Below, in pieces: positions 1,409 to 59,105 of a stretch of 64,000 nucleotides of DNA (position 1 is the first letter of the stretch; each line of letters begins with the position of its first letter). Both the position numbers and the translations under genes were made by a program. The stretch comes from Amphiscolops sp. MND2022. Its lineage: Eukaryota. Where the stretch lies: contig OZ076409.1 of the NCBI GenBank assembly GCA_964187785.1, positions 49,602,001-49,666,000 on the forward strand. Direction: 5' to 3'. Below the pieces are notes generated by a model that was not told the DNA's origin, did no database searches, and worked only from the letters and a program-made list of their open reading frames with translations.

Positions 1409-1834
1409 CAGGAATTGGAAAATATCAATTGCAATTTAATTGATATTCAAAAATGGCACAAAAAATTAATTGCACTTTTCGAAAAACTCCAATTCAATTG
1501 ATCAATTATTTGGCAATTAATTTCAACGAAAAACATTTAAAATTTCATTCATACTATCACAATCAAAAATGATGTTCGGAATAAGCTTTTTACGAAATTT
1601 GCAACAAATTAGCGCCTGGAATTACGTTAATATTTGCCAAGTATGCACTCAATTCATTTAGCTATGTTTGGCTATACAAATATGCCCGAGAAATAGGCTA
1701 AGAGAATTGCAATGTATTGGTTTTCATTGCCTACTTTCCAATCAATTCTTTGACGTCTTAAAATTACCCAATAAAAATATTTTCATTGAAAAATTGCAAT
1801 TTATTGTTCATCAATCAAAATTTTCCAATTCCTG
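1409..1834. mobile_element. hAT-like MITE
   Basis: TIRs CAGGAATTGGAAAA / TTTTCCAATTCCTG; 8-bp TSD GTTGAAGA / GTTAAAGA (1 mismatch); internal AATTG(C/A) motif repeats; no transposase ORF. Confidence 0.75.
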
Positions 1835-2981
1835 GTTAAAGATTCTTTTCAAATTCTTTTTACCTGGGGGGGTGGAATAAATGACATGGTCTTAAAGTTG
1901 TTCACTTGATAAAAATGATTACGTACCAAACAACATACAAGGTTACCGAAAAAATCATTTCAATGAAAATAACTGCAATCAAGCAATAACAATAATTTAT
2001 TTTTGAGATCATGGAATAAAAATCATTCGTTCTCGATTAGAAGCCACATTAAGCACATGGGCTCCCAAAAAGTAATTTCTCATCGAAATTATTTTAATTA
2101 ATTTTTTATTTTTTTGATTTTTCCATAAAAATTATTTATTTTTTGATATTAGAAATAAAATTTATTTTTTTTTCAGATCCATTATTGAAAAATTATTTTT
2201 GTGACCACCGCCATTTGAGTGCCGCCATTGTGTCTGTGACCGCGAAGAGGACGAATTAACGCGCGAAAGACTTTTCAGCCGATCAAAACTGACGCAGGGG
2301 TATCTGAGACAAAACATGACCCCCATGCATCTTGAAGGATCTGTTTTTCTATTTGTAAATAGATCATTCTGGGATGTGCAAACTGTCGAAAAAATATTTT
2401 TTGCTTTTTGCCATAATGGCCATTATTTATTTTTATTGCTGAGAAATCAAAATAATTCATTTTTCTGTACGAGAAATAAAATTTTTTTTTTTTGGAGTGC
2501 CATAATATGGCCATTATTTTTTCGGAGCCCCTGATTAAGCATGAAAAGTTTATCATAAAAGCCATATCTTACTGTATTTCTTCGAATATAAGCAGCGAAA
2601 TCACTGCAGAAAAAGGTAAAAGAAACTCGGTAATGATAATTTGGTTCGTTGTGATGGGAATTGAACTGATAAAGAAACGCCATGTGACTGAGCATGAAAA
2701 TTTCTTTCATTCATTCTCAACCTAGAGCTAGTTTGTAGCAAAGCTGGAGGATTGAACGACTGAAAAGAAACGCAATGTGATTGAGCATGTTTTTGTGATT
2801 AGCGTACGTGTAACGTGTCTGCCTTGTTTTATTTGTTTAATTTATTTACTTCTAATTTTGAACTGACGAGTTGCATCAAAGTCTAGCTGCTTCTAAAACT
2901 GAACACGCCTGATTTGGTGGAATAAGACACATGGTCCTAAAATTTAACATTTTAAGTTTTTGTTTCAATGTTATACCAAAA

Positions 2982-3122
2982 GGGGACATTGGCTCAGATA
3001 TCTACAGATAGACGACAGGAGATACCTACCTCATGAACTTAGATTTTATTGAACAATTCTGCCAGAGTGTTTAACTTTGGTGATCTGACAAGCGGAAGCT
3101 GTTGCACTGAGCCATATTCCCC
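2982..3122 (-). ncRNA. 5S-rRNA-related putative Pol III RNA gene, copy 1 (shortest, ~141 nt)
   Basis: Minus strand GGGGAATATGGCTCAG...CTTGTCAGATCACCAAAGTTAAACA...CTGAGCCAATGTCCCC then TTTT; complementary ends; homologous to 10016-10185 and 16072-16233. Confidence 0.45.
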
Positions 3123-3210
3123 TACATAAGGTAAACTAAATTCGATATTAATAGCTTAGCTCATACCATACTGTTATATTGATGATGTACAGTAGTGTTC
3201 TATGATGTAG

Positions 3211-3580
3211 TACAATAGCGTTCTAAAATATCGCAGCTCCAATGCTTAAAATTGCAAATTTCAAATCGAAATTTCTTGAAAATTGTCACAAATACGAAAA
3301 AGTGTCAGCTAGGAAAGTTTCTTAGAATTTTATCTAGTTTACGAAAAAGTTTGTTTGAAATTTTTGCGACAAAAATTACAAAAGTTAGAAAATGGAAATT
3401 TTGACAAAATTTAATCAAATTTGTACTTTTTCTGTACAAAGTTTGTATACAAAATTAAAAATATATTTTTGCAAAATTTTCAGTCAATCATTTGCAGATT
3501 CAGATCACTTTTTCTCGCAGACCTTTCAAACAAACATTTTTGTAAACTAGATAAAACTCTAACAAACTTTCCTAGCTGGC
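3211..3580. mobile_element. Tc1/mariner-like MITE fragment (family also at ~239, 5738, 8311-8635, 8965, 19128)
   Basis: Recurrent terminus TA|CA(G/A)TAG(C/T)GTTCTAAAATATCGCAACTCC; long arms found in both orientations (e.g. 3221-3430 vs 8440-8632). Confidence 0.55.
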
Positions 3581-3588
3581 AAAATTTC

Positions 3589-4020
3589 GGTGCCGTTGTA
3601 AGTTCGCCAGATTTAAGTTCGCCACGTATAAGTTAGCCCCTACAATTTAGCCACATTTAAGTTAGCCACCATATAAGATCGCCACGTTTGTTTTCGCCAC
3701 ATTTCAGCTAATGAAAGAATTCCATATCAGCGAATATTTTCATTTGGTTATGATTAGTGGCGATTAGCATACTTGTTGTATGGCTCGGTCGCTTCGCTCC
3801 CTTCGCCAAGTAGCAACATTGAGGCATAGCCATTTGGCACGTCGCTCCGCTTCGCTTCGCTTCGCTCCTGCATTTAGGGCACTAGGGGTATGTGAACATA
3901 TCTGACTACGTTATCCTAATTTTGAATGATCGAATTTGATTGGCCGAAAATGTGAGGCGAACATATAAGGTGGCTAAATTAAATATGGCTAAGATTTACG
4001 GGCTAACTTATATTCAACAC
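3589..4020. mobile_element. Foldback/MULE-like non-autonomous element with AAGTT(C/A)GCC subterminal arrays and a GCTTCGC core
   Basis: Tandem TAAGTT(C/A)GCC motifs on the left and inverted GGCTAA/GGCGAA motifs on the right; central core (3771-3910) shared with 41524-41662 and 47223-47345; no TSD recognised. Confidence 0.5.
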
Positions 4021-5031
4021 AAACCACAAATAACTAAACAGAAAAGTAAAATCTTCACATGAACAAAAATTTTCCGAATAGTAATTTTTGGACTTTGTTT
4101 ACCCTGGAAGTCAGTTTTGTTTTTATGTTTATATTTATTTGAATCAAATTTCATTTTCCAAATGCTAATTGGGACTAATTTCAATCTGATTTGATTCGAG
4201 ATTAATAGTTCGAAAAATTCTTTTCGTAACAATTCTCAATTTTTGTCGCAGAGAATTTTTAAAACACTAATAAAAACTAGATGAAAGTCTAAGAAACTTT
4301 CACTTATGATGTAATTCAAAATTTCGAAAAATCAGAACCTAAAGTCGCTTGTGGGACGATTTCTTAATCACAATACTGTACATGTATTGGCAAATCATCA
4401 GCTTATCGGACAGAATACGAATCTATTTTCTATCACATTCCGCTTCTTTTTGAAACTATCTTTCCTCAACTACACTGCGTTTCTTTTCTATTGAACTTAT
4501 ACTTTCTTTTATTGTTCTTGATTTAGGGGGGGGGCTTATATGACGAACATACCGTAGATCAACATTTTCCCTTTCACAATTGGCGAGGGGGGCTTATTTG
4601 CCGGGATATACGGTATGATCTAAAAGAAACGCAAGGTGATTGATATCGAATGCAAACTTTTGGGATAACAAAAATGTTGCGTCTCTGTGCCAATATTTTT
4701 ATTTTGTGAAAATTAGATTAACTTCGTCATTAAAAAAATTTCTTTGAGGTGAAAATGTGATAGAGAATTGATTTGTATTGTTTCACTAGAAGTTCTAGTG
4801 AAACAATACAAATCAAATCTATCACATTGCGTTTCTTTTAGATCATACGTCTAGTGAAACAATACAATACACTTCTAATCTCAATCATATTGCGTTTCTC
4901 TCTCTACGTTAACTCAAACAAGATCCCACCTTTTATGTCCCACCAAATGCCCGTCCCACCAAGGCATAATAAAAAGGGTCTATGTCCCACTAAATCTGGT
5001 TTCCTCAACACAATCCACTAAATATATACAA

Positions 5032-5139
5032 CAGTGTTGGCATGTTTTAAAACAGACTGTTTTGAAACAGTTTTGAAACACTGTTTTAAAACGTTTGAAG
5101 CGTATAAAAATACTTTTAAACGTTTTTTATCCAACCCTG
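5032..5139. mobile_element. Mini hAT-like MITE
   Basis: Ends CAGTGTTGG / CCAACCCTG; 8-bp TSD ATATACAA / ATTTACAA. Confidence 0.6.
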
Positions 5140-6274
5140 ATTTACAATCATGTAATAGTCCCTTTTATGTCAAATAACTTGACCAATAAGGGACCTTTAT
5201 ATGAATGAGTTTTCTTGTTTGGGGAAAAATTTTCTTCAAAGAAATCAAGTTCCATACATATTGGCTGTAACAGCACTAAAAGTTGGTAGTTTGAATTCTG
5301 CTGTATGAGACTCAGGTATGAAAGTGTATGAGTAGGTTGTACTTCCAAAAAACCTGGTTGGAGTAATCATACTACGCGAGGAAGTGGAAAGGAACATTGC
5401 TCTCAACACCGCTGCATTATTTCCACTGTGGAGGCGATTGAAACATCAACAATCACAGTGGTATCTATTCCATGAACCATGTCGGTTGCTCCTACCGTGG
5501 TTCGAACCACCATTTCACTATGCAGCTAGTGTGAGAGCAATCTTTCGCGCAACCGACTACTCCAACAAGACCTTGAATTGTCTGCTCGTGTTGCAGCTCA
5601 TATAGCAATTTTATTGCGAAATAATAAAGATATAAGAACGCTGCAGCCAACAGCATTTTGTGGTAGTTCTAATCAGGGGTGCGCAATTTTGCGTTTATAT
5701 TCTTCATATTGCATTGTTTCTTTTAGATCATATTTCCACAGTAGCGTTCTAACGTTCTAAAATATCGCAACTTTAATGCTTATAATGTCAAAAGTCAAAC
5801 CCAAATATCTGGTAAACTGTCACGAAAATTAAGTAACGTAGAATCAAAGTTTTTAGACTTTTTTTCATCCGGACACTCGCTATATTTTACCCAACCTACT
5901 GATGTTTTCATCGAGAATTTGTTTCGAAATACGATATATTTTGTGTCTATGAGCACTGAAGTACATGTATTAAGATAGGGTATAAGAATTGTTTTTAGAA
6001 AGCTGACAATTATAATTTGAAATCGAAAAAGCTTTTCAATCCAACTATATCAGCATCCTGACGATACTTGGCGGCAATTCATCCACAAAAAATTTGCAAA
6101 TTTTTTTTCGCAGAAAATTCAGATTTTTTGTATTTGTGGCAATTTTCAAGAAATTAGCCTTTCATTTTTAACAACCGTGACTTACATTTATATAGATCAT
6201 AATTCTAGTGAAACAATAAACTCGGACCATGTCATCTCTCCCCCCCCATGTACACCTTGGTACGAATTTCCCAC

Positions 6275-6950
6275 CCAACACGAAAGCACATTTTCTTCTG
6301 GAATAAAAATATTTCACTGATAAGAGAATATTATACTTTTACTTAAAGGATTGTCTCTACAACTGTTTGGACACTTCAGGTAAAAAATCCATAATTTTTT
6401 GATATTATTGTCCAAAATAGCATAAATTCACGCTTGGAACAAGATACATTAATTGAAATTTAGTTCTCTTTGTTTATTTGCTCTTTGCAAATCCACCTTT
6501 ATTTGGACAATTAGAAAATAATTCAGCAGATAATTTGAAATAAAAATACAAACAGTGCTGTGGAAATTTGAAAGATTTTAATCAAAAAACTAACTAACCA
6601 ACAGAAAACGATTTAGGTCACCTGTAGGTTAGGCTTTGTATGACATATTAAGAAAGAGAGCTGGAGAAACAAGATAAAAGTGATTCCAGATATCCTCGAA
6701 ACTCTTCAAAGTAATTTGTACTGATACTTGGACTTAGAACGGCTTGAAAATCAGAGGAATTATGCGGGAGAACAAAAATTATAACAAATGCCGGAAATAA
6801 GTTCATCAAAACTGAATTTTAACTCAATTCAGTATTATAGCCGCAACGTGCTAATTAAAGAAGTCACTGTGGCAACTAAGGTCATTGACAGTTCGGGGAA
6901 GGTGCGAATTTGTTTAAGCAAAAGTTGTGACGTTATGCTCGGCTGCTATC
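6275..6950 (+). repeat. Segmental duplication, homologous to ~17265-18058
   Basis: Long near-identical stretches (CCAACACGAAAGCACATTTT... to ...TATGCTCGGCTGCTAT) with indels; 7110-7330 likewise matches 18380-18605. Confidence 0.85.
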
Positions 6951-7206
6951 ACACGGCCATCGCACGTTAAACACTACTGTAGGAAAGGCAATGGGATGAC
7001 TCATCATTGATGAGCATGCTATTGAGCCTGCTGCTAGCAAGCAACTTCACAACTCTGAAAAACAAGCGCCGTGTGATGGGCCTGTGAAGTTCAGTTGCAG
7101 TTGGAGATAAGTTTCACGTGAATGAGAACATCTTTTGTCGGGCACAAATAACAGCTGAGATTACAAATCTCAACGGTTATTTTTGCCCAGTATAATTTAG
7201 TTTTAA

Positions 7207-7284
7207 GGAGGCTCTCAGTTAGGGGATCACATAGTGTCGCCCATAACAAGACCCACGGCGAGAACGTGGCCTCTGAAGGGTCTC
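7207..7284 (-). ncRNA. HDV-like self-cleaving ribozyme, copy 1 (intact fold)
   Basis: Minus strand GAGACCC-UUC-AGAGGCC-ACG-UUCUCGC-CGU-GGGUCUU-GU-P4 hairpin-A-CUGA-G(A)GCCUC: 7-bp P1 with G1-U wobble, P2, 3-bp P3, 7-nt L3, single P1.1 pair, catalytic C in CUGA. Confidence 0.75.
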
Positions 7285-8093
7285 AAAAATCTAAGTTTAC
7301 AAATTCTAGTACAAAAATATGCTAACTACCAGAGCTTCCGAAATTTTATTTGGGATCAAATAATTCAAATAATTTGAACCAAAATCAGTTATTTGAATAA
7401 TAGAAACTTGCAAGCTTTTGATCATTTAATTGGCAATAGTTGAAGCATTATTTTCGGTAATAATATTCTTAAGACTTTCATCCCAAGATAGTCTATTCAT
7501 CTTCAAAAATTTCAAGGGTTCATTGGAAAAATACTTATCTGAAACCGTATAAGGCCTAATCCGCGGTAGTAAAGAACCTTTCCATATAATTAGAGTTCGG
7601 CACTATGAAATCAATATCAAACTAATCAGACATGTTTTGTGTTTTCCATTTTTTCATTAATAATTTCTAGTGTGCGTCACATTTCAATGCATCATTCCAG
7701 GCAAAAAAATCACAATTACTTGTTAAACAAGCGGAAGCCCTAATAACTACACTTTTACAAAATTTTAATTGTACAAAATACCTTTTAACGGGTATTTACC
7801 TAGAAACTCGAAACTAATAAACATTGTGCACGGACATACAAAGGTTTTGCGACGGCGTTCTTCATTTACAGTGGGGGAAATTTTGTATTAGAGGGCAGGA
7901 ATGTTCAAAATGAGAAAGGTACTAATAACTGATCTTGATTTTCAGTTACTAGTATAATTACTAGTGCCCTAAATGCAGGAGCGGAGCGAGGTGCCATATG
8001 GTCATGCCTCAATGTTCACGGCCCCTAGAAAGTTGCGGAATTGAAATTAAACAAATCGTGAGAACATTTGCGTTAAAAAGTCTTGAACTACTT

Positions 8094-8311
8094 CGATGAA
8101 AGAGCAACGCGATGTGATTTCGAGTACTTCGATGAAATAGCAACGCGATGTGATTTTGAGTAATTTCATCTGAAATAGCAACGCGATGTGATTTCGAGCA
8201 CTTCGATGAAATAGCAACGCGATGTGATTTCGAGTAACTTCGGTGAAATAGCAACGCGATGTGATTTTCGAGTACCTTCTTTGAAATAGCATCGCGATGT
8301 GGTTTTCGAGT
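8094..8311 (+). repeat. Tandem array of ~36-bp units (GAAATAGCAACGCGATGTGATTTCGAG plus ~10 variable nt), 6 copies
   Basis: Directly visible; a second array at 18948-19127; single units at ~8640 and ~19520. Confidence 0.9.
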
Positions 8312-10015
8312 ACAATTCTAAAATATCGCAACCTCATAGCATAAAATGGCAAAATTCAAAACCAAATATCAGGAGATTTGGTGGCAATTGATTGACTGAA
8401 ATTTTTTCAAAAATATATTTTCAATTTTGTGAAGATCCGGAAAAAGTACAAACTTGAATGAATTTTGTCAAAATTTCAAATTACTAATTCTTGAAATTTT
8501 TGTTGCAGAAAATTCAAACAAACATTTTTGTAAACTAGATAAAATTTTAAGAAACTTTCCTAGCTGACACGTTTTCGTATCTGTGACAGTTTTCAAGAAA
8601 TTTCGATTTGAAATTTGCAATTTTAAGCATTTGAGTTTTAATGAAAAAGCAACGCGGTGTGATCAGGGTTACCGAAAATGTTATTTTGATAATATTTTAG
8701 CCAAAAATACAGTTATTTTATTTCTATTCTCAAAAATAAATAATTGCAAAACTTTTGTGTTGAATAAATGATGAATGTGAGTGAAACTGATTAAGTTTAA
8801 TTGGAGAAGAATTCTGAGAAATCTGAGAAGTCTCAAGTGTCAACGAAGTTGAAATTTTGTAAATCCGTTACGAACCATGCCGAGACTGAACGGAATTTTC
8901 ACCGAGTGTCAGGACTGCTGTGACGTCATAATTAATATGATAGTAGCGTTCAGTAAATGTAGCTTTCTAAAATATCGCAACTCCACTGCTTAAAATTGCA
9001 AATTTCAAATCCAAATTTGTTGGAAACTGTCACAAATACGAAAAATTGTCAGCTATGGAAGTTTTTAAGAATTTGATCTAGTTCACAAAAATGTTTAATG
9101 GAAATTTCTACGACCCTTTTTGAAAAAGTTAAAAATACAAAATACTTTACCGTATATTCCGGCAGGGGTATTCAAAAAATAATTTCGGGGAAATTTATCG
9201 CGATAAATAAAACAGAAGAAAGTTCAACTCAAAACAGAAAGTCGTTGAATTTCTTGTGACTGCACAAAATAGTGTCAACAAATTTGTATCTTAATTCTAA
9301 ACTGTCACCATGGAAATAAAGATAGAATTAAAGGTTTATGGTTTATAATTTATGTTTTGTGATATTTTTTACTAATTTCTCAAAAACAATCGGCGGTGGG
9401 GGGGATGGTTTTAACAGCAAAGAGCCAAAATGTGGGATGTTGATTAGATTTCTTTATAATATTGAGTTTTGAAACTTGAATCTTTTTCGTGGCAAGTATT
9501 TACGTGACAGAATATGGAAATTGATAATTCACATAATTTCCACAATATTTGGGTTTTAATGTAATTATTGCAATTTATTATGGCTGATGTTATAGAGGCA
9601 GTCTTACATTCGCCATACCGTATTAGGAAAACCTGACGTGTAGGTAAACTTATTTCATAATTAAACAGTTTTTTTCACACTCTAAAAAATAAATTGGACC
9701 ACTGATTGTGAAAATGATTTGGACTGAACAAAAGGTACCGATATCTCCGCAACTATTTTCTGCTAAAAACTATTCAAGTGAAAGTTTCTCAATTTTTCAA
9801 TACGAGTTGAGGCGTTGAGGCAACTAGCGTTGGTGGGACATAGACACCTTTTTACTAGGCCTTGGTGGGACGGGCATTAGGTGGGACATACAGATTTTGG
9901 CAACCGAATTGGATTTTTGTACACATCATCAGCCAATATAAACTTTTACATCATATTTTAAAAAAGTGTATTTAATTTCAAAAGTTGAATTTTTCGTTTC
10001 AATCTTTCACAAAAT

Positions 10016-10185
10016 GGGGACAGGTGCTCAGATATCTAATGATAGGCCACAACAGATACCTACCTCATGAACCTTGACTTTATGGAGCAAGTAGACTATT
10101 CTGTCACGATGGAGCCTCAAGTTGTCAGAGTGTTTAGGCTCGGTGATCTAAGAAGCGGATTCTGAAGCTCTGAGCCATAGTCACC
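10016..10185 (-). ncRNA. 5S-rRNA-related putative Pol III RNA gene, copy 2 (~170 nt)
   Basis: Minus strand GGTGACTATGGCTCAGAG...TTAGATCACCGAGCCTAAACACTCTGA...CTGAGCACCTGTCCCC-ATTTT; TATATA ~25-30 nt upstream; upstream block shared with copy 3. Confidence 0.5.
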
Positions 10186-11798
10186 TATATACGGTAAACT
10201 AACTTGAGTATATACAGTATACGCAAAACATGTAAATACTCCATGCCGTGTTCATTCACATTCTTTCAGCTCTTATTCCTAGTGAACCAAAACCAATCTA
10301 ATTCCAATCACATTGCGTTTCTTTTAGATGGTGGATTCCCAAATAACATAAGAGTAAATATTTTTCAAACAACAAAAATGGAAAAGTATGAAAATTACAG
10401 AGAAAAACTCTTAAGTTCAAAAGTTTAATCGGGTATTCAGCTATATTTTTGTTATATGAAATTAACTTTCCTCTTTATGTTTTTTATGCGACTAATCTAT
10501 TATTATTAATATTATTGAGTAATTCGGTGATGTCCGTTTTTATTCTTAATTTGAATGGAATATAAAATATTGATTTTATTTAAAATAACCATATCTACAA
10601 CAATATAAATTATTGGGAACCTCCAAACCAAGAGCCTCTTTAAAACTTAATTACAACAAGTTTTTTTGGAAAGCAACAATCATAGGGCTCTAGGCTCAGC
10701 GTGGCTTAGCTGAAGTGGCCGATTTGAACGTAACGGTTGCTTAAAAGTTGCTTAAATGTGGTGGAAGAAGCGGGCCTATACCCAGGTTCGATGAAGAATT
10801 CAGTGACACTTTGTCATCCAGACGTAGGGCGAAAAATCAAAGCTTTGTACGAGAATGGGTGACATATTGGAGTAGTAATGTACTGCAGTATTACCCTTGG
10901 AGAGTTCAAAATAGACTATCAAGATGTGCCAGGGTTGATCAAATTATGATTTTTATTTATTTTAAACAGACAAATAGGATTTAAAATATCTTAATCCGGA
11001 TTCGTGATTTAAACCATCTTCCCGACTTTAAAAAAATCTGTGGTGGACCCCAGACGTCTTACCCCCCCCCCACTTAGAGCTGCGGTGGAACAAAATGGAC
11101 GATTTGGCCCAGAGTTATCCAAAAAATGTTCAAAATTAAATTCAATTTAAATCAAATTTATTTAAAAGGTGTTTTTAAGAACTGTTTAGAACTTTAAAAC
11201 AGAAGATAAGCTCTCAGGTGATATCGCTGCTTGCTGTGAATCAAACAATACCAATCAGCTTGGTAATTAGCGCTGGTTTGAACGGTGTGGTTTAACACCA
11301 TTTTGATTTAAAACCTAAAATTTTCATTTAAATTTTCTTTCAAAATACGTATTTTCCTTGTGATTCTTTATTCACTGTATTTCGAAACTTAAATTGAGAG
11401 CAGTTTTGGCATATCATCTTTTATTTCAAAACTGGGTGGTAATTTACTTGATTCTCTAATATCACTAACTTAGAAAATTGTTATTACTGACTTAGTTTAT
11501 TTAAAAGTAAGGTTAATTGGTCAAGTGCAAGACGTTATTTCAATTATTTAATTAGTTGGTTACTTGAGTGAAAGGACAAAACAAACTTCTGAAAACAAAG
11601 CAAGTTACGAGTAAAAGACAGAGTAAAGTAACGATGTGTTTTGTCAATGATCTGGCTCCATTGATCATTCAATCTCCAAACACTAAAACGATCGCTTCCT
11701 TCAAAACACTGACAATCAGACTTTCAAAACGCAATACACTATCAAAAATATACCTGAACATCAGAATACCTTAACGCAATACCATACGAAGTCTCAGA

Positions 11799-12408
11799 AT
11801 GCTGATCTGCGCCGTTTGTGGGGAGGAACTGTACAACTTCATTTGGTCGCTTGATGAGAACCACGCGATCTGCAGTGAGTGCCGCGATGCTTGGATCAAA
11901 GTCCTCGAGAGGCAAGTTTCACAACTTTTCTGATTTTGAAATTTGTAGTTGAAGATGACAGTTTTTTCACTTCAAAATTTTCCCATATTATCACTGACGA
12001 ATATCGAAAAGAACCCGACATTTCACCGATTTGTTTTTTGATGCTATGAAACTATTACTCTTCTGTTTTTCTTAGTGGGACTTAGTGGGACTCAGACCCC
12101 CTCTTTTTCACTCTGCCTTGAAGGGACGGGCATTAGGTGGGACATAAAAGGTGGGACCTCCTATGAGGCGTAGTCAAAAGTGACTGAAAGTGGCTAAAGT
12201 TCGACCGAGTGCTTAATACTGGCACATTGGCTTCGTTTTCAGAAAAAACCAACAATGAGGAAAACGGAACTAGAAGCTTGATATAAAACAAACTTATTCA
12301 TGATATTCAAAAATCATCCATATTGTGAGTTACAGGCAAACGACCACTGACAGCATCATTTGGGTGAAGTGCCCTCTGTGTAGGAAAGAATCCCTACTGA
12401 AAGCTTGA
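11799..12408 (+). CDS. Two-exon RING-finger microprotein, 61 aa; join(11799..11911,12336..12408)
   Basis: Exon 1 MLICAVCGEELYNFIWSLDENHAICSECRDAWIKVLER and exon 2 QTTTDSIIWVKCPLCRKESLLKA* join in frame through AG|GCAAGT...TTACAG|G (GC-AG intron), giving CxxC...H-xx-CxxC...CPLC; absent from the ORF track. Confidence 0.65.
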
Positions 12409-12416
12409 TCAAGCGT

Positions 12417-12505
12417 GATCGACCTGCAGATTTGAGAGCCTGATCGACCTGCAGAAATGAGAGCTCGATCGACCTGCAGAAATGAGAGCTCGATCCACCT
12501 GCAGA
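12417..12505 (+). repeat. ~25-bp tandem repeat (GATCGACCTGCAGAAATGAGAGCTC) x~3.5 just after the RING stop codon
   Basis: Directly visible. Confidence 0.85.
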
Positions 12506-13764
12506 AGACCCTATAAAACTTTTTCAAATGAACAAATTTTATTTATTTTTCAATTGTATATATTTTGTTATTGTATAAAAAAAAAGTTTTACTTTCATTC
12601 TTTGTAATATTTCCCAGAACATATGGAAAGAAAAAAGACTTGCATTTTGAATTCTGACTGAAACTACATATAAACTGATATACAATTTCTACAGCAATAA
12701 AAAATGCAAAATTTTTTCTCAACGGGGAGGCGGAGTTTCTTAACAGGGGGGGTCGTTAAAAACATGGCTAAAAACATGCGGGCAAACATGGGTGAAAACC
12801 TAGAAAGGGGACCTTTTGGTACTTTTAAGGGTACAATTCTGAACGGGGGGCGTCTAATATCTTCGTTTGCATTTTCATTTTGATCGCTATTGCTAATTGT
12901 TTGAATTTTTTGCAGATTAATTGCAAGTTTGAATCAAAAACACTTGGAAAGGATTGTTTCTATTTATATTTTCGGGGATTTAATAGCCATAGAGAGATGT
13001 CTTTGAGAGGGCAGTTATTTTGCCATGAACTACGTTTTTACATCCCTTCCACTAATACCCCAAATCAAATGATGGTAAATTTATGTGACACTAGACTTGC
13101 ATTTTTTTTAAATGTTATTTTCAATAAAACGAAATGCTGAGCATTTTCCATTCTGATGCTTGGAAAAGATTTGCTTGTCAAGATTCTAAATTGCCGCTTT
13201 GGTTTAAAATTTGTGGAAATTTTGAGTTATTTTGAAAAATGAGAAATTTTTGAATTTGAATATTCACACCAATTTTAAAAGTATGACCATTGCTCTCAAG
13301 TTATTTGTGAATCTACAATTTTCAATTTTATTATTTTAGACGATAGGGATACTTCAGAAACATAGAGAAACCAACTAATTAGGAGCAAACAAGTACTCAA
13401 TTTCAATTTTCTACGTTAATCACAGCGCGTACAAAAATTGTGAATATTTCGTTCAGTCCCGGCATGGTTCGTAAACGGATTTCCAATTTCTTCGTTCGCC
13501 TTGCAGTTGTCTGAATAGCAAATAGCAAACACCTTCAAAGCAAACACCAATTCGAATTTAAAATTATCTCCACTATTGAACTATCTACTTTTTCTATGAT
13601 GACCAAATAGCAAAAGCGAACACAATTCAGTGAACAAGTTTAAATCTCAGGTTTTGTGAAACTCATTTCAGTTAATTGAAACAAATTCACAATTCCGAAA
13701 CGAATTTAGTTTTATAAAATATTGGTTTTCTGAAAAGAGTTTCACAGATCCTAAAAATTAACTT

Positions 13765-13932
13765 GTCCTTAAATGAAAAGTCCTTTGAAGATGAAATCAA
13801 CTGTCATTTGTCAATGAATTTGTCATTAAATGAAATGTCATTTGAAAATGAAATCCATTGTCATTCGTCAAGGAAACTGTCATAAAATGAATGTCATTAA
13901 ATGAAAAGTCTTTAAATCTTGTCATTAAATTA
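13765..13932 (+). repeat. Degenerate TGTCATTAAATGAAA short-motif array
   Basis: About 10 related TGTCAT/GTCCTT-AAATGAA motifs. Confidence 0.7.
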
Positions 13933-14555
13933 AATTATAAATTGCCTTTATGTTATTTGGTCTACATTTGCGTGAAACAGAATTTTTTCAATTCTTATCA
14001 GAATAACCAGTCAGAATTGCGTTTCTGAAATTTTATTTACTTGGTTATATTGAATTTTATTCTGTTGATATTCTGTTCAACAGGTAAGAACGTTAAAATG
14101 GTAACTGTGATAAAGATGTTGCAATTGTTGAAAATTGTATTGTCGAAGATTTCCGGGGTGGGGAATAATCGGTAGGGGTAAGAGGGCGATAAACGTTACA
14201 GGAAAATTAATTTCAAGTAACTACTACTTGAATTTCAATATTTTAAGATACTTCGATCAATATATTACCAATATATCAAGATACGTCGACGAATTGAATA
14301 CTACTACATTAGTGATATTAGCAAAAGCAACAAAACATATAATATATATAATTAAAGTAGTATTATCATTAAAATATAATCTAAGAAATAGTAATGATAC
14401 TATTATATTATCTAAGAATAAAAAATATTTAATAATTTAATAATTATTATTTTTTAGGAAGAAATATTTATAAACATATACTATAAGTATAAAAAACGGA
14501 TGTTCGATACAGAGTGCTCAACTAATTTTTTCACGAGGTTTCAGGAGTCAAGAGC

Positions 14556-14765
14556 ATGAGGGTCAAGCGAACGCCCCAGAAGAATTACAGTAGTTGTTTA
14601 ATTTGCTTAGATGAATATAGATCAGTAGAATTACAGAGTTTGCATGAAAAACATAGATTACATTTAGTATGTAGAGACTGTTTAGATACCCTTTTAGTTA
14701 GTTTTGTAAATGTACTTAAATGTCCTTTATGTAGATTACCTGTAGATAATGTTTTATATTCTTAG
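14556..14765 (+). CDS. Single-exon RING-finger microprotein, 69 aa
   Basis: CLIC...HRLHLVCRDC...KCPLCR pattern; intact ATG to TAG; TATA-like TATAAGTATAAAAA ~65 nt upstream. Confidence 0.6.
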   Translation: MRVKRTPQKNYSSCLICLDEYRSVELQSLHEKHRLHLVCRDCLDTLLVSFVNVLKCPLCRLPVDNVLYS

Positions 14766-15153
14766 TTCTGTAAATTTTGCAGATTTTGTAAATTCATTGT
14801 ACTAATTCGTTTACGGACAGTGGTGTTAAAAGAAAAAAAATTATCTCATTTTAACGAAAATACTCATTGGCGAATGCGACAGCCAATCAAATGTGAGCAA
14901 AAATTTTTTGTGTTACACGTTTTAAAAAAATTGAAATGAAATTGAAACATGTTATAACAAACATATTATAAAAAAATTGTTATAACATGGGCCAATCAGA
15001 TGCAAATACAAACGAAATGTTATCCAGTTAATGAGGGATGTTGCGATTTGTTCGGACTTTTACCCTTCCCCATTTTTGCTGAATTTGCATTTTCATAATG
15101 AACAGAATTAATAACAGAATTGAACAGTGAGTGTGAATAAAAGAATTCAGCGT

Positions 15154-15462
15154 CAGGGGCTGTCAAAAATTAATTGGAGAAAAATCAAATGCATATAATT
15201 GCAATCATTTAATTGATTGCAGACTTCCAGCAATTGCAATTAATTTCCGCCAAAATATGACACCTATGAACTGAGAAAGGTAGCTGTTCTTGAAAACAAA
15301 CAAAAATTTTGGGACGAAGAACTTGTTTCAAAATGCTGTGCATAACAACGATTAATTGCAATTAATTGCAACTAAAGGATTTATTTTTTCTAAAATTAAA
15401 TTAATTGATTGCAATCTTTGATAATTGATTGTTTCCCAAAAATTAATTTTTGACAACCCCTG
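15154..15462. mobile_element. hAT-like MITE
   Basis: TIRs CAGGGGCTGTCAAAAATTAATT / AATTAATTTTTGACAACCCCTG; 8-bp TSD TTCAGCGT / TTGAGCGT. Confidence 0.8.
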
Positions 15463-15637
15463 TTGAGCGTCCCATTTTACATGTATCAGCAGTTTTCACA
15501 ACAAATGTACATACAAATTTGCGTCTACCATTTTCACGGGCCTTGCCGTCTTCGAGATAACTGTGATTATTCATACGTTTATATTGTGAAAAATAATTGT
15601 AAAAGTTGGCAACTAATCGATTTTAACACCACTGTTT

Positions 15638-15715
15638 GAGACCCTTCAGAGGCCACGTTCTCGGCGTGGGTCTTGTTATGGGCGACACTATGTGATCCCC
15701 TAACTGAGAGCCTCT
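15638..15715 (+). ncRNA. HDV-like self-cleaving ribozyme, copy 2 (intact fold)
   Basis: P1 15638-44/15668-74 (GAGACCC/GGGTCTT); P2 15648-54/15708-15 with one bulged A; P3 ACG/CGT; L3 TTCTCGG; J1/4 GT; P4 15677-15702; catalytic C15704 in CTGA. Confidence 0.75.
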
Positions 15716-16071
15716 TTAAAATCACAGAATACTGGGCTAGCGTGACTATTTGTTGTGATTTCTGATCACAACATTAACAAAAGCCCGACATTTTTGAAAA
15801 GATGTTTTTGTTGAATTCAGTAGTAAAGCAGAAATCTAAACGATCCAGCTTAGATGGCATGAACTTGCATTTCAGGTTCCCCTCCAACACCAGCTACTCT
15901 CTGGCTACTATTGATTCAATCTATTTTAATTGGTGATTGGAGAAACGTTAAAGCATAATAAAAATGATAATATTAAACAAATACCGTACATGTATAACAG
16001 TAGTAAGGTAAGCGAACCATTCTCATCATACAGCGTTTCTTTTCTAAAATAGTTTCAATCTTCTACAAAAT

Positions 16072-16233
16072 GGGGACAGGTGCTCAGATATCTAGAGATA
16101 GGCGACAACAGATACTTACTTGATGAATCTGGACTTCATGGAGCAAGTCTCTTATTCTGCCCCGGTGGAGCATCAGAGTGTTTAACTTCGGTGATCTAAC
16201 GAGCGCATGCTGTTGCTCTGAGCCATAGTCCCC
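16072..16233 (-). ncRNA. 5S-rRNA-related putative Pol III RNA gene, copy 3 (~162 nt)
   Basis: Minus strand contains CTCGTTAGATCACCGAAGTTAA (cf. invertebrate 5S CTCGTCCGATCACCGAAGTTAA) flanked by TCAGAG/CTCTGA; GGGGAC/GTCCCC ends; ATTTT terminator; TATATA at about -23 to -33. Confidence 0.55.
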
Positions 16234-16622
16234 TATTTACGATAAATTAACTTGAATATATATATACGCAATACATGTAAATACTCCACGCCGCGTTCCA
16301 TCAAACTTCGTTTGTTTTAGCTTAACCATACTGTTATAAACAAAAATACAGTATATGGAATTTGTTTTTTTATGCTAAATGAATTCAATTTCATATTGTA
16401 AATGGTAAGTGGGACTAATTTTGTTGTGTTGAGAACTGAACTGATAAAGAAACTCAATGTGATTGAGCCTGAAAAAAAGGCTTTTATATCGAGCATGAAA
16501 AGCACGCCTTATTTTCACCTCAAACAAAATTTTTTGATGGCAAAGTTAAACTCTTTTTCGCAAAATAAAAATATTGGCACAGAGACGCAACATGTTTGAT
16601 ATCCCAAAGTGTTTGCAATCAA

Positions 16623-16820
16623 TATCAATCACATTGCGTTTCTTTTACATCATACTTCTAGTGAAACAATAGAAAAGAAATATCTATCACATTGCGTTTC
16701 TTTTAGATAATACGCCTAGTGAAACAATACAAATCCAATATCTATCACATTGCGTTTCTTTTAGATCATACTTCTAGTGAAACAATACACATCTAATCTC
16801 AATCATATTGCGTTTCTCTC
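16623..16820 (-). repeat. Array of ~57-bp units containing ATCACATTGCGTTTCTTTTAGATCATAC(TT)CTAGTGAAACAATA (family also ~2760, 4620-4900, 10280-10330)
   Basis: Directly visible repeated units; core GAAACGCAATGTGAT resembles the GCAACGCGATGTGAT core of the 36-bp arrays. Confidence 0.8.
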
Positions 16821-17996
16821 TCTACATTAACTCAAACAATATCCCACCTTTTATGTCCCACCAAATGCCCGTCCCACCAAGGCATAGTAGAAAAGGGTCT
16901 ATGTCCCACTAAGTCTGGTTTCCTCAACACAATCCACTAAGTATTTCCTACCACCAAAAGAAATTCCTTTGAAACGAAAAATTACCAAAACAACAAAAAT
17001 TAGATTTCCATTGATTGAACGTTGGCCCCAAGTGTTAAATAGACCACTTTTTCACTTATTTTAGGCCTTGGGGGACGAGAATTAGGTGAGACAGGTGGGA
17101 CCTCCCAGATTGGCCAATATTGAGCAGTTCCAAAATTGGGGATATGATTGTTAGAGCATGCTTAAGAACTTCATAGTCTACTCTATGTTGACTAAAAGGA
17201 CTGTCATCTATCCCCGCCAAATTGCGGCGGGGGATAAGACCAAAGGTTCAAATACCAGGTACACCAACCAACACGAAAGCACATTTTCTTCTGGAAAAAA
17301 AATATTTAACTAATAAGAGAATATTATACTTATACTTAGATTATACTTAGAGGATTGTCTCTACAACTGGTTGGACACTTCAGGTAAAAATTCCATAATT
17401 TTTTGATATTATTGTCCAAAATTGCAAACGTTCACGCTTGGAACAAGATACAGTAATTGAAATTGAGTTTTTATGTTATTTGCTCTTTGGAAATTCACGT
17501 TTATCTGGACAATTAGAAAATTGAATAAGTTTAATCAAAAAAATAACTAACCAACAAAAAAACGAGTTAGGTCACCTGTCGGTTAGGCTTTGTATGACAT
17601 ATTAAGAAAGAGAGCTGAAGAAACAAGATAAAAGTAATTCCAGGAATCCTCGAAACTCTTCAAAGTAATATGTAAGCTATGCTTGAAACCATTTCCGACA
17701 AAAGGTTTGAGATACTTGGACTTGGAACGACTTGAAATTCAGAGGAATTAGGGGGAAAATAAGTGGGGGCGTTCCATTATTCCGAAACATCATTATTCCG
17801 AAAATATTGATTAGAATAAAACTTCCGAAAATAAACAAAATTGTAACAAATGCCGGAAATAAGTTCATCAAAACTGAATTTCAACTCAAATCAGTATTAC
17901 AAAATTTACAGTACATGTGTTTGCGAATATTCATAGCCACAGCGTGCTAAATTAGCACTGCTAATTAAAGAAGTCACTGTGCCAACTAAGGGCATT

Positions 17997-18147
17997 GACA
18001 GTTCGGGGAAGGTGCGAATTTGTTTAAGCAAAAGTTGTGATGTTATGCTCGGCTGCTATAATGCGAAGCGACTCGCTTCGCATTTTAGCAGCCGAGCATA
18101 ACGTCACAACTTTTGCTCAAACAAATTCGCACCTTCCCTGAACTGTC
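17997..18147. repeat. 151-bp near-perfect palindrome (75-bp arms, 1-nt centre)
   Basis: GACAGTTCGGGGAAGGTGCG...GCGAAGCGA-C-TCGCTTCGC...CGCACCTTCCCTGAACTGTC. Confidence 0.9.
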
Positions 18148-18481
18148 GCTTCAAGCGACCGAGCCATACTACAAGTTTGCTAACCTTCCAAATAAATCAA
18201 GTTCCATGCATATTAGCTGTAACAGCACTAAAAGCTAATTTGATTTTCTGCTGTATTTGAATCCTGCTGTATTGGACCAAATTTTCATTTTCTGCTGCTC
18301 CCACACGGCACGTTGTTAAACATTACGTTGTATAACTAGTTAAAAACTGTAGTTAACCGGTATAACTGTAGTAAACGCAAAGTTTCACGTGAATGAGAAC
18401 ATTTTTTGTCGGGCACAAATAACAGCTGAGATTACAAATCTAAACGAAAAGTTACTTTTGCCCAGTAAAATTAAGTTTTAA

Positions 18482-18562
18482 AGAGGCTCTCAGTTAGGGG
18501 ATCACATAGTGTCGCCCATAACAAGACCCACGCCGAGAAATTTCTGGCCTCTAAAGGGTTTC
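18482..18562 (-). pseudogene. HDV-like ribozyme, copy 3 (decayed)
   Basis: Same sequence as copies 1 and 2, but P1 5' strand is GAAACCC (A-C mismatch) and the P3 5' strand ACG is replaced by AGAAAT. Confidence 0.65.
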
Positions 18563-18947
18563 AAAAATCTAAGTTTAAATATTCTAGTACAAAAATATGC
18601 TAAGTACACTTTTAAAAGTAGGAAATGCTAAAAGGAATAGATTTTAACCAAAATCAATTAATTGATGAATAGAAACTCACAAATTACTTATCCAATAATC
18701 AAAATACATCAATTAATTGCCAAAACAAGAGTGGATAAAGCGGTCAAAAATTTAAAAAAAAAATTAAAAATTTCAAAATAGATGTGAACTACATGAAATT
18801 CTAAAGAGCTTTTTTCTCTGATGTTTTTCAAAATCTTTGACCGATTTCGAGAACATCGAGCCTGAAATCGCCCGGGGGACGTTTTCCTAATCACGGTATT
18901 GTATTGTTCGCTTACGAGAAGCCAGCAATAAGCGCTCTGATTAGTTG

Positions 18948-19127
18948 AAAAAAGCAACGCGGAGTGATTTGAGGGAATAATAGCAATGAAATAGCAACGC
19001 GATGTGATTTCGAGTAATTCCAGTGAAATAGCAACGCGATGTGACTTCGGTCAACTCTAAGTGGAATAGCAACGCGATGTGATTTCGAGCAACTCCAAGT
19101 GGAATAGCAACGCGATGTGATTTCGAG
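18948..19127 (+). repeat. Second array of ~36-bp GCAACGCGATGTGAT units (5 copies)
   Basis: Directly visible; abuts a Tc1-like MITE terminus as at 8311. Confidence 0.9.
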
Positions 19128-19584
19128 TACAGTAGTGTTCTGAAGTATCGCAACTCCATTTCTTGAAATTGCGAGTTTCAAATCCAAATATCTTTGAGAC
19201 TGTCACAAATACAAAAAACTGTCAGCTACAAAAGTTTCTTAGAATTTTATTTAGTTTACAAAATTGTTTGTTTGAAATTTCTGCGACGAAAATTACGAAA
19301 GTTAGAAATCGGAATTTTTGACAAAATTTCATCAAATTTCCACATTTTCTTGGTTTTCACGAATTTGAAAAATTTGTTTTGAAAAATTTTTAGTTGATCA
19401 TTTGCCCCCAAATGTCCTGAGGATGCTGATATGATTTGATTGAAAAAATTTTTCGATATCAAATAAAAATCAGCAATTTTCTAAATGCAATTCTTATAGC
19501 CTATCTTTAATTGTAATTTCAATGAAAAAGCAACGCCGTGTGATTTCGATTTTTGTCAAATGTCAACGCCACTTTTTTCCGTGA

Positions 19585-20265
19585 AATTACTTTGTAAATG
19601 CGAGAAATTTCGCTAATGCATTTATGATATCGTCATTCTGCAGCATTTCTCAAAATGATAGAATTTAATCCAAAATATAAACTGAAATAATTTTAATTAG
19701 GACCTTGAAATCGTTGTTGAGTATTTCTTTTGTTTCATTTTACTCTTTTGCGTGAAGGGGTGGTGGTTTTGTGAATAGATGAATGAATTACTTTGTAAAT
19801 GCGAGAAATTTCGCTAATGCATTTACAATATCTTCATTCTGCAGCCATTCTGAAAATGATAGCATTTATTCCAAAAAATAAACTGAAATAATTTTGATTA
19901 GGACCTTGAAATCGTTGTTGAGTGTTTCTTTTGTTTCATTTTACTCTTTTGCGTGAAGGGGGGTGGTTTTGTGAATAGATGAATGAATTACTTTGTAAAT
20001 GCGAGAAATTTCGCTAATGCATTTACGATATCTTCATTCTGCAGCCTTTCTGAAAATGATAGCATTTATTCCAAAAAATAAACTGAAATAATTTTGATTA
20101 GGACCTTGAAATCGTTGTTGAGTATTTATTTTGTTTCATTTTACTCTTTTGCTTGGGGGGTGGTTTTGTGAATAGGTGAATAAATTACTTTGTAAATGCG
20201 AGAAATTTCGCTAATGCAGTTATGATATCTTCATTCTGCAGCCTTTCTGAAAAGGATAGAATTGA
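19585..20265 (+). repeat. ~200-bp tandem repeat, ~3.4 copies
   Basis: Units start AATTACTTTGTAAATGCGAGAAATTTCGC at 19585, 19786, 19986 and 20183. Confidence 0.95.
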
Positions 20266-20280
20266 TTTTCAAAAACTGTT

Positions 20281-20897
20281 CGAAACTTGGAGTTGGTGGG
20301 ACAAGCATTGTTGGTGCATACCCTGTCGGTCACATCATGAATGAATCATAGTAATGTGGTGTTAGAAAGAAGCAACATGAACGTTTAAAGAGGTCAATGA
20401 CCAAAAGAAAATTATCATACTTGCTGCGACTTACACCGACAGAAACGACTTGACAATCCGAGGTCGGCGTTCGTTCTTTTTCAAAAACCCATCACTTGGT
20501 GGGACATACACTCGACATGTCGTCGACCAATCAGAAGCCGATGTTTACAACCCGCGTTGGTGGGACATACACACAGCATTCTCGCCAACGAATCAGAGGC
20601 CGAGGCGCATGGGGCCATTTCACGCATTGTTGGTGGGACATACACACAATCCGTTTACCCAATCAAAAACGCGGATTTCATCGATGACAACTTTTGGCCG
20701 CTTGTCGGCGCTGTAAAAATGTGTAGGTGTGGAGTGTAAGGCACTTGGTGGAACATTTTCTCAAATGGTTTCTTTGTCAATTTTAGGCGTTTTGCACTAT
20801 GTGAAAAATGACGTCCCACTTATTATGTCCCACCTTGTGCCCGTCCCACCAAGGCCTAGTAAAAAGTGGGGTCTATGTCCCACCAACTCTGGTTTCG
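20281..20897. mobile_element. TIR element with GGTGGGACAT subterminal motif arrays (ends of this family also at ~440-510, 895-950, 4925-5006, 9815-9890, 12070-12160, 16842-16925)
   Basis: Left CGAAACTTGGAGTTGGTGGGACA vs right reverse complement CGAAACCAGAGTTGGTGGGACA; motifs direct on the left and inverted on the right; superfamily unassigned. Confidence 0.6.
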
Positions 20898-20902
20898 TAC
20901 AC

Positions 20903-20906
<4 letters not shown>

Positions 20907-20942
<36 letters not shown>
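20907..20942 (+). repeat. (AG)n microsatellite
   Basis: Directly visible. Confidence 0.95.
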
Positions 20943-36980: not shown

Positions 36981-36989
36981 GACATATTG

Positions 36990-45900: not shown

Positions 45901-46246
45901 CGTCTTCTTTGATTGCCCCAAAGGTATATGATGCCTTGTTTATTGGGATGGGGGTTGTTTCTTTGATTGACAGTTTCATTTTCGTCATCTCTTCGTCGCG
46001 TGCATGTTGCCTTGCTTGTTCTTTCTGCAACAGGATCTCTTCTTCGGTCTCAATAGTTTTTTCTGGGAGGAAGAAGAGTTGCTCTTCATCTGCGACGTCT
46101 GTCGACTGTAAGTTTACTTGTATTGATTGGGTCGTAATATCATTTCTGATTTTTAGTTCCACTCTTTCTTTAGGGTCGAGGTCAATTCGCCATAGGAAAT
46201 CAGCTGCAGTGTTTTGCGTCCCCGCTACTTGCATGATGGGAAAATT

Positions 46247-58315: not shown

Positions 58316-59105
58316 TATAGTATAGTATAGTATAGTATAGTATAGTATAGTATAGTATAGTATAGTATAGTATAGTATAGTATAGTATAGTATAGTATAG
58401 TATAGTATAGTATAGTATAGTATAGTATAGTATAGTATAGTATAGTATAGTATAGTATAGTATAGTATAGTATAGTATAGTATAGTATAGTATAGTATAG
58501 TATAGTATAGTATAGTATAGTATAGTATAGTATAGTATAGTATAGTATAGTATAGTATAGTATAGTATAGTATAGTATAGTATAGTATAGTATAGTATAG
58601 TATAGTATAGTATAGTATAGTATAGTATAGTATAGTATAGTATAGTATAGTATAGTATAGTATAGTATAGTATAGTATAGTATAGTATAGTATAGTATAG
58701 TATAGTATAGTATAGTATAGTATAGTATAGTATAGTATAGTATAGTATAGTATAGTATAGTATAGTATAGTATAGTATAGTATAGTATAGTATAGTATAG
58801 TATAGTATAGTATAGTATAGTATAGTATAGTATAGTATAGTATAGTATAGTATAGTATAGTATAGTATAGTATAGTATAGTATAGTATAGTATAGTATAG
58901 TATAGTATAGTATAGTATAGTATAGTATAGTATAGTATAGTATAGTATAGTATAGTATAGTATAGTATAGTATAGTATAGTATAGTATAGTATAGTATAG
59001 TATAGTATAGTATAGTGTAGTATAGTGTAGTATAGTATAGTATAGTATAGTATAGTATAGTATAGTATAGTATAGTATAGTATAGTATAGTATAGTATAG
59101 TATAG
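58316..59105 (+). repeat. (TATAG)n pentanucleotide array, ~158 units
   Basis: Directly visible; two TGTAG variants near 59016-59030. Confidence 0.99.

What the first reader, a model, noticed from the sequence alone, without database searches (positions are those of the whole stretch)
16067..16300. Candidate novel Pol III RNA gene: 5S-like core, longer than 5S, with an external TATA and upstream element
Seen on the minus strand: CTCGTTAGATCACCGAAGTTAA matches the invertebrate 5S loop C/helix III/box A stretch as I recall it at 20 of 22 nt. It lies about the expected distance from a GGGGAC 5' end that pairs with a GTCCCC 3' end followed by ATTTT. TATATA sits at about -25 to -30, and a block GAAC(G/A)CGGC(G/A)TGGAGTATTTACATGT at about -40 to -65 is shared with copy 2. 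The 3' half lacks a recognisable 5S box C, and the unit is 20-50 nt longer than 5S. Conserved flanks imply DNA-level duplication, unlike SINE3. Inference: a 5S-derived RNA now under a U6-type external promoter, or a highly divergent expanded 5S variant.
Basis: partly seen in the sequence, partly recalled or inferred. Interest (0 to 1): 0.75.

Follow-up and report, generated by a model that had tools for sequence, protein, structure and literature searches.

The report
Transposon carrying tRNA-5S hybrid RNA genes
A 51-kb jumping DNA element with over a hundred copies in this animal genome carries four copies of a short unit resembling the start of a cysteine tRNA joined to a 20-25-letter piece of 5S ribosomal RNA, likely transcribed into a folded RNA that may help the element evade host silencing, as adenovirus VA RNA does for its virus.

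Summary
The motifs are real, but this is neither a 5S variant nor a U6-type gene. The 167-nt unit (16067-16233, minus) is one of four paralogs inside a young ~51-kb tyrosine-recombinase (CryptonV-like) transposon that also encodes SET, JmjC and RING proteins. The genome holds about 600 units; none of those checked stands alone. The first 34 nt match host tRNA-Cys 1-33 (24-25/33). Next comes host 5S nt 34-58 (23/25); sister types match nt 42-61 at 20/20. Box C is absent and Rfam 5S scores 14.5 bits (cut-off 38). The -40/-65 block is missing from three of seven types and does not resemble host U6 promoters. What persists is TATA at about -30, a tRNA-type A box, a terminal stem and T4-5. The same 5S segment also sits inverted in the host 5S spacer (3,498 matches). 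Best reading: a Pol III gene for a VA-RNA-like structured RNA, likely anti-silencing. No expression data were available and alignment-wide covariation is nil. The scan earlier noted SET-recombinase and JmjC elements in this genome, not this RNA.

The parts
16067..16233 (-). Predicted Pol III RNA, paralog pA (167 nt including the U tail)
   Evidence: transcription inferred
16200..16233 (-). tRNA-Cys-like head: acceptor 5' strand, A box and D arm, with one inserted base
   Evidence: 24/33 colinear with host tRNA-Cys L264
16179..16203 (-). 5S-derived segment (host 5S nt 34-58, 23/25), covering the 5' part of box A
16067..16089 (-). 3' strand of the terminal stem, ending like the tRNA-Cys acceptor 3' strand, then T4 terminator
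16256..16266 (-). TATA run at -33 to -23; a TATA-like element near -30 is kept in all unit types seen
16273..16298 (-). Upstream block; specific to some unit types, not a host PSE
16052..16058 (-). TTGAAA(C) motif kept downstream of the terminator in all types; role unknown
10011..10185 (-). Paralog pB (175 nt)
2977..3122 (-). Paralog pC (146 nt), lacking the upstream block
1..20907 (.). Right part of a ~50.9-kb tyrosine-recombinase transposon (G000:C1:49572056-49622907). The SET-recombinase gene, JmjC gene and paralog pD lie left of the window; the right end abuts (GA)n.
14556..14765 (+). Small RING-finger ORF (69 aa), one of three in the C7 copy of the element
   Evidence: (scanned in the C7 copy)
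16842..16922 (+). Internal remnant of the element's right terminus; others at 440-509, 891-948, 4924-5003, 9822-9890, 12079-12160

Best explanation
The unit combines a head matching host tRNA-Cys with a 20-25-nt piece of host 5S and sits four times as cargo in a ~51-kb tyrosine-recombinase DNA transposon; it is likely a Pol III gene whose predicted 140-175-nt folded RNA would act as a VA-RNA-like decoy against host RNA silencing. Shown: location in the element, copy numbers, the tRNA-Cys and 5S matches, and loss of box C and of a U6-type PSE. Inferred: the chimera arose by a switch at the GTCCGA shared by tRNA-Cys and 5S. Inferred: Pol III starts about 29 nt after the TATA, as at host 5S, uses the tRNA A box (the 5S segment perhaps replacing the missing B box) and stops at T4-5. 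Predicted: the RNA closes a terminal stem of 6 plus 7-9 bp with a U tail and carries one or two hairpins. The decoy role is argued by analogy and from the co-carried SET, JmjC and RING genes; it is untested. My odds: origin 0.85, transcribed 0.65, decoy role given transcription about 0.45.
For: 29 of 30 fetched copies share at least 2.3 kb of flank at 98.5% or more (one dropped for a seed mismatch). Six copies share 23-57 kb. Recombinase exon has at least 135 copies at 90-100%; invariant R, K, H, Y residues in 63 homologs; top fold matches XerH/XerA and integrases. Unit anchors: 506, 624, 554 and 77 matches, controls 0. 116 of 177 listed units lie within 80 kb of a listed recombinase, against about 1% of chromosome length. 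tRNA-Cys 24-25/33 in 5 of 5 types. 5S match beats 2000 of 2000 shuffles in 6 of 6 types. At the orthologous slot of two subfamilies the unit (-38 to +177) is a 79% island while 1 kb upstream does not align. Terminal stem P >= 0.76 in 14 of 14 copies; 5S segment enclosed in a hairpin loop in 8 of 14, with differing 3' strands and two both-sided changes. VA RNA parallels: ~160 nt, box A in the terminal stem, U4 end, proposed tRNA origin (PMC7589676, passages).
Against: No transcript evidence either way. RNAalifold covariation term +0.30 and +0.15, i.e. none; the terminal stems are invariant and so uninformative. The focal copy pA, both pB forms, pA3, pE2 and L177 do not form the loop hairpin; pB has z of only -1.4, antisense strands often fold about as well, and 5 of 41 control windows reach z <= -3. 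No B box: best 6-7 of 10. T4 in pA is shorter than most host U6 and 5S terminators seen. Other non-coding repeats at the orthologous slot are also 80-86% identical, so retention is shown but not slower substitution. No fold match reached E <= 0.001 in PDB. Other tRNAs with G-rich 5' ends (such as Ala) were not compared.
Confidence: 0.45

Rival explanations
1. The units matter as DNA. TATA, A box and the 5S segment recruit Pol III factors and act as spaced chromatin barriers inside the element; the RNA is a by-product.
For: The best-kept parts are promoter-like (nt 1-20 and 41-60: 85-100%; nt 61-145: 33-92%). The same 5S segment (nt 43-62, 19/20) recurs inverted 2-3 times per host 5S spacer and is near chance elsewhere (20 against 9 in control, mostly in 5S arrays), as expected of a 5S-specific binding site. 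Barrier activity of tRNA genes is recalled, not tested.
Against: It does not explain the invariant 3' strand pairing with the head, or hairpins rebuilt with different 3' strands.
Confidence: 0.2
2. The RNA displays the 5S segment in a loop in order to engage the 5S system or a complementary nucleic acid: 5S read-through spacer RNA, 5S DNA, or the element's own 37-bp repeats, possibly guiding the element's SET or JmjC proteins.
For: The 14-mer is more unpaired than at least 28 of 30 shuffles in 11 of 14 related copies. Its complement lies about 20 nt past the 5S terminator. A 12-nt complement occurs in 4 of 17 internal repeat units.
Against: The 12-nt match has E of about 0.4. The 5S fold that uL18 or TFIIIA would need is absent. 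The focal subfamily does not expose the loop reliably. The element inserts at CA-rich sites, not in 5S arrays.
Confidence: 0.13
3. A neutral passenger: an old SINE-like tRNA/5S head was captured once, then copied with the element's internal rearrangements and homogenised by conversion.
For: The element is a mosaic with many internal end remnants and repeats. Mosaic pB forms suggest conversion. Decayed relic copies exist. Covariation is nil.
Against: TATA spacing, head, terminator and terminal stem are kept in all seven types while the middle and flanks turn over. There is no tail or target duplication.
Confidence: 0.15
4. One reading: an expanded 5S rRNA variant, or a 5S-derived RNA under a U6-type promoter.
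For: 5S patch at a similar distance from the 5' end; RF00001 does appear at E 2.7 in a 351-nt scan.
Against: 14.5 bits against cut-off 38; helix III pairs broken; no box C; block unlike host U6 upstream and absent from 3 of 7 types.
Confidence: 0.04
5. A MITE with imperfect 16-19-bp terminal inverted repeats.
For: The ends are reverse complements over 16-19 nt apart from about 4 positions.
Against: About 35 nt upstream and 20 nt downstream are shared by all types, no target duplication is seen, and copies move with tens of kb of flank.
Confidence: 0.03

Closest known systems
Adenovirus VA RNA I/II (PMC7589676, passages seen)
   Same: About 160 nt; Pol III; box A within the terminal stem; U4 terminator; proposed tRNA origin; carried by a DNA parasite.
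   Different: No sequence relation tested; no B box here; a TATA and a 5S segment are present; carrier is a transposon; Dicer, Exportin-5 or PKR binding untested.
SINE3 and tRNA/5S chimeric SINEs, e.g. HaSE3 (PMC3272025, passages); MEG-TR (listed in PMC10946416 section 11; its hybrid make-up is recalled)
   Same: Small-RNA-derived head mixing tRNA and 5S ancestry; template switching proposed as origin.
   Different: No LINE tail, no target duplications, no IE or box C; upstream TATA kept; moves only within a DNA transposon.
Cassandra, Ajax, Helenus TRIMs (PMC10886601, passages; PMC10946416 section 11)
   Same: Mobile elements that keep 5S- or tRNA-derived Pol III promoter parts without the native fold.
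   Different: There the promoter makes the retrotransposition template and keeps boxes A, IE and C. Here the unit ends at its own terminator inside a 51-kb element. Table 2 of the review lists no DNA transposon with 5S gene sequence (only Pokey with rDNA spacer).
CryptonV (one sentence and a reference title in PMC8869645; class list in PMC5753468)
   Same: Animal DNA transposon with a tyrosine recombinase, inserted at microsatellite-like sites.
   Different: No reference sequence was available to compare; the 51-57-kb size and the RNA cargo are not described in what I read.
5S rRNA (RF00001)
   Same: 20-25 nt identical or nearly so to the host gene; TATA at a similar distance.
   Different: No 5S fold, no box C, tRNA-like head.

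Membership tests
5S rRNA (RF00001) | Covariance score at or above 38 bits | tested here: not met
   14.5 bits; no hit; host 5S 118.5
5S rRNA (RF00001) | Box C about 30 nt after box A | tested here: not met
   2-6 of 18 at the expected place in 7 of 7 types
5S rRNA (RF00001) | Part of the large ribosomal subunit | not testable with these tools
   needs sedimentation
Type 3 (U6-type) Pol III gene | Upstream element shared with host U6 | tested here: not met
   U6-shared 16-mer (picked by eye from one locus): 12-16/16 in 5 of 6 U6 loci, 8-10/16 in 7 of 7 unit types; block not similar to 15 host upstream regions. U6atac not found; 7SK, MRP and RNase P not searched.
Type 3 (U6-type) Pol III gene | TATA near -30 | tested here: met
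   also present at host 5S and two of four SRP loci, so not diagnostic
Type 2 (tRNA/VA-type) Pol III gene | Internal A box near +8 to +19 | tested here: met
   colinear with the host tRNA-Cys A box except its last G
Type 2 (tRNA/VA-type) Pol III gene | B box | tested here: not met
   best 6-7 of 10 within the unit and 30 nt downstream; more distant B boxes not sought
tRNA | Cloverleaf with anticodon and T arms | tested here: not met
   ARAGORN 0 genes in six element copies
SINE (SINE2/SINE3) | Solo dispersed copies with unique flanks | tested here: not met
   8 of 16 isolated-looking copies checked, all 8 have flanks matching other element loci
SINE (SINE2/SINE3) | 3' tail and target-site duplication | tested here: not met
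   by eye: stem, T4-5 and a shared downstream motif
MITE | TIRs at the unit boundary with target duplication and unrelated flanks | tested here: not met
   flanks conserved beyond the inverted ends
VA-like RNA (works-like claim) | Pol III transcript that binds or is cut by Dicer or Exportin-5 | not testable with these tools
   experimental
CryptonV (carrier) | Tyrosine recombinase | tested here: met
   invariant R75, K127, H222, Y231 and near-invariant R196; fold matches (best E 3.6e-3 and 9.6e-4); Pfam silent
CryptonV (carrier) | Insertion at microsatellites | tested here: inconclusive
   left ends start with CA repeats in 5 of 5 and 10 of 11, often only 2-5 units; right flanks are (GA)n, (CA)n, (TA)n or unique
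CryptonV (carrier) | Grouping with Repbase CryptonV recombinases | not testable with these tools
   no reference sequences held
Endogenous DNA virus (carrier) | Capsid, polymerase or packaging genes | tested here: not met
   114 ORF scans against Pfam gave SET, JmjC, C2H2 and RING plus a few weak unrelated hits; 109 of 137 ORFs of 66 aa or more were given; divergent viral genes could be missed

The most novel reading that the evidence does not exclude
An animal DNA transposon has built its own virus-style Pol III RNA gene family from tRNA-Cys and a 5S-specific 20-nt module. The RNA works in trans with the element's histone methyltransferase, demethylase and RING proteins, either as a silencing decoy or by using the looped 5S segment as a guide to 5S arrays or to the element's own repeats.
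Probability: 0.3. Interest if true: 0.85.

Novelty: new variant of a known kind. Interest (0 to 1): 0.62.

Why it matters
Known 5S- or tRNA-derived parts in mobile elements serve as promoters for a retrotransposition template. A recombinase-driven DNA element needs no such template, so several self-terminating Pol III units kept across subfamilies point to a role for the RNA or for Pol III machinery on the element. If it is a VA-like RNA, transposons would share with DNA viruses an RNA-based counter-defence. The unit also singles out a 20-nt 5S module that the host repeats, inverted, thousands of times in its own 5S spacers, which is a direct handle on 5S regulation in this lineage.

Tried and rejected
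Sequencing runs: no RNA holder listed, so no reads were laid. Rfam: nothing at cut-off in the window; only generic hairpin hits elsewhere. Other collections: one metagenome match, unrelated in context and taken as chance; 0 in viral contigs; no relatives outside this genome were found, and eukaryotic relatives could not be searched. Word-index protein search found nothing; PDB sequence search nothing useful. U6atac not found, uninformative. A possible second 5S segment near the 3' end of pA (10/11) is not significant (174 of 1000). The G/A variation shared by unit and spacer sits in a CpG and needs no special explanation. Upstream -35 to -1 matches host SRP2 and one tRNA-Cys flank only weakly, mostly via the TATA (49 comparisons). 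No convincing target of the hairpin arms in the element, U6, U2 or SRP. Paper searches that returned no such system: listings seen; 0 papers; Repbase Reports and most subscription journals are not in the library, and no supplements were read.

Full report
Observation. Against this genome's own 5S gene the match is 20/22, and 23/25 over nt 34-58; 0 of 2000 shuffles score as well. The window has two more copies, at 10011-10185 and 2977-3122. Rfam gives nothing at cut-off; on 351 nt RF00001 scores 14.5 bits against a cut-off of 38.

Context. A genome search scored 40 of 822 candidates, all 98-100% identical over 251 nt. Of 30 fetched loci, 29 could be oriented and all share at least 2.3 kb of flank. 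Extending six copies shows one element of 51-57 kb at about 99.5% identity, here G000:C1:49572056-49622907, ending at window 20907. Its left end starts with CA repeats in 5 of 5 and 10 of 11 copies; a true right end was found in only 3 of 9 further windows. It encodes exons for a SET domain, a JmjC protein and three small RING proteins. It also has a 290-codon exon with invariant R, K, H and Y residues whose model (pLDDT 87.7) matches XerH/XerA and integrases best, at modest E-values. Homologs occur in fish and a beetle, often with SET. The exon has at least 135 copies. No viral hallmark family was hit. I call the element CryptonV-like on one sentence in PMC8869645; membership could not be tested.

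The unit family. This element carries four units; other subfamilies carry related types. Anchors give 506, 554 and 624 matches, plus 77 of a further type (80 less 3 inside 5S arrays), controls 0. Of 177 listed units, 116 lie within 80 kb of a listed recombinase and 161 near a recombinase or another unit. Eight of the 16 others were checked and all have flanks matching other element loci; 406 matches were not listed. There is no tail and no target duplication, and about 35 nt upstream and 20 nt downstream are common to all types, so SINE and MITE fail.

Origin. A pattern built from the head retrieved host tRNA-Cys. With one base inserted, the first 34 nt match tRNA-Cys 1-33 at 24-25/33 in 5 of 5 types (binomial 6e-8 before allowing for choice of tRNA and gap; local-alignment shuffles are weaker, 1-45 of 2000). 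The last seven paired bases equal the tRNA-Cys acceptor 3' strand, though an inverted copy of the head would give six of them too. The 5S part is nt 34-58 in pA and nt 42-61 at 20/20 in the pE types; no second 5S segment is significant. tRNA-Cys and 5S share GTCCGA where the two matches meet, a plausible switch point (inference). Only Cys, Lys and Arg tRNA arrays of the host were seen.

Promoter. A 27-nt version (-70 to -44) is no closer to 15 host upstream regions than shuffles are; it is present in 3 types, partial in 1 and absent in 3; and the motif common to 5 of 6 U6 loci is absent from 7 of 7 types. A TATA near -30 is kept throughout, as at host 5S (-27/-28) and two of four SRP genes. 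Box C (2-6/18) and a B box (6-7/10) are absent. What remains is TATA, tRNA A box, 5S segment and T4-5.

Structure. The terminal stem is predicted in 14 of 14 copies; the 5S segment lies in a 17-19-nt hairpin loop in 8 of 14, closed by different 3' strands, with two both-sided changes that depend on a register set by eye. Against this: the focal pA is not among the 8, RNAalifold shows no covariation, antisense strands often fold as well, and 5 of 41 control windows are as stable as pA. The 14 copies are related and not independent. At the slot beside the JmjC gene, two subfamilies keep the unit as a 79% island while the upstream kilobase has turned over.

A side result. Host 5S spacers hold 2-3 inverted copies of 5S nt 43-62 (19/20) per repeat, the first about 20 nt past the terminator, with 3,498 matches against 1 in control (the first 100 are all in C1 arrays). 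Outside these settings the motif is near chance. The host and the transposon have thus both singled out the same segment. This fits a 5S-specific binding site used as a promoter part, and leaves RNA pairing open.

Mechanism. Most likely Pol III makes a 140-175-nt RNA with a base-paired 5' end and U tail. Its anatomy parallels adenovirus VA RNA (PMC7589676, passages), and the other cargo is chromatin- and ubiquitin-directed, so I commit to a silencing decoy at overall 0.45. Rivals are a DNA barrier (0.2), neutral passenger (0.15), loop-guided pairing (0.13), 5S variant or U6-type gene (0.04) and MITE (0.03). Expression could not be examined.

Known systems and novelty. HaSE3 (PMC3272025, passages), Cassandra, Ajax and Helenus (PMC10886601, passages; PMC10946416, passages and section 11) reuse 5S or tRNA promoters to make retrotransposition templates; nimavirus recombinases (PMC10871703, passages) are another microsatellite-targeting case. 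I found no report of self-contained tRNA/5S Pol III units in a DNA transposon. Verdict: real, a new RNA family by Rfam, a new variant of a known kind; interest 0.62.

Noticed in passing
L071, L072, L079, L129 (host 5S arrays on C1, C12, C87): Each 5S spacer has 2-3 repeats of about 168 bp that begin with an inverted copy of 5S nt 43-62; 3,498 matches genome-wide. A read-through transcript could fold back on the 5S box A region.
   Followed up: partly
window 8088-8313 and 18949-19130; also left of the window: Arrays of 37-bp repeats in the element; 4 of 17 units carry a 12-nt complement of the RNA loop (E about 0.4).
   Followed up: partly
window 440-509, 891-948, 4924-5003, 9822-9890, 12079-12160, 16842-16922: Internal remnants of the element's right terminus in both orientations; the giant element looks accreted from smaller nested elements, and some copies sit next to another element's end.
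   Followed up: partly
L068:3107-5113 and L068:6072-L069:2975 (C7 copy): C2H2-JmjC gene in tandem with a spliced SET / 38-aa repeat / recombinase gene; three 69-80-aa RING ORFs elsewhere in the element.
   Followed up: partly
L190 2919-4069 (C3:33.39 Mb): A second, diverged recombinase family (68-72% DNA identity) immediately beside the element's left end.
   Followed up: no
L083-L092: Host U6 genes have two promoter types, and pairs on C3 lie tail to tail 60 bp apart; U2 loci do not share the U6 upstream motif.
   Followed up: partly
C7:5.2-5.3 Mb, C7:38.6-38.7 Mb, C8:47.9 Mb: Long tandem arrays of single tRNA types (Lys, Cys, Arg) with many degenerate copies.
   Followed up: no
window 33693-37946 and 45896-51759 (minus): Two Gypsy-like gag/pol regions, the second broken; recognised from ORF motifs only.
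   Followed up: no
window 29588-30235 (minus): 215-codon ORF that looks like an aldo-keto reductase exon (by eye).
   Followed up: no
window 58155-59250; 19557-20354; 17997-18147: A 5-bp satellite of about 1 kb, a 200-bp tandem repeat near the element's right end, and a 151-bp palindrome.
   Followed up: no
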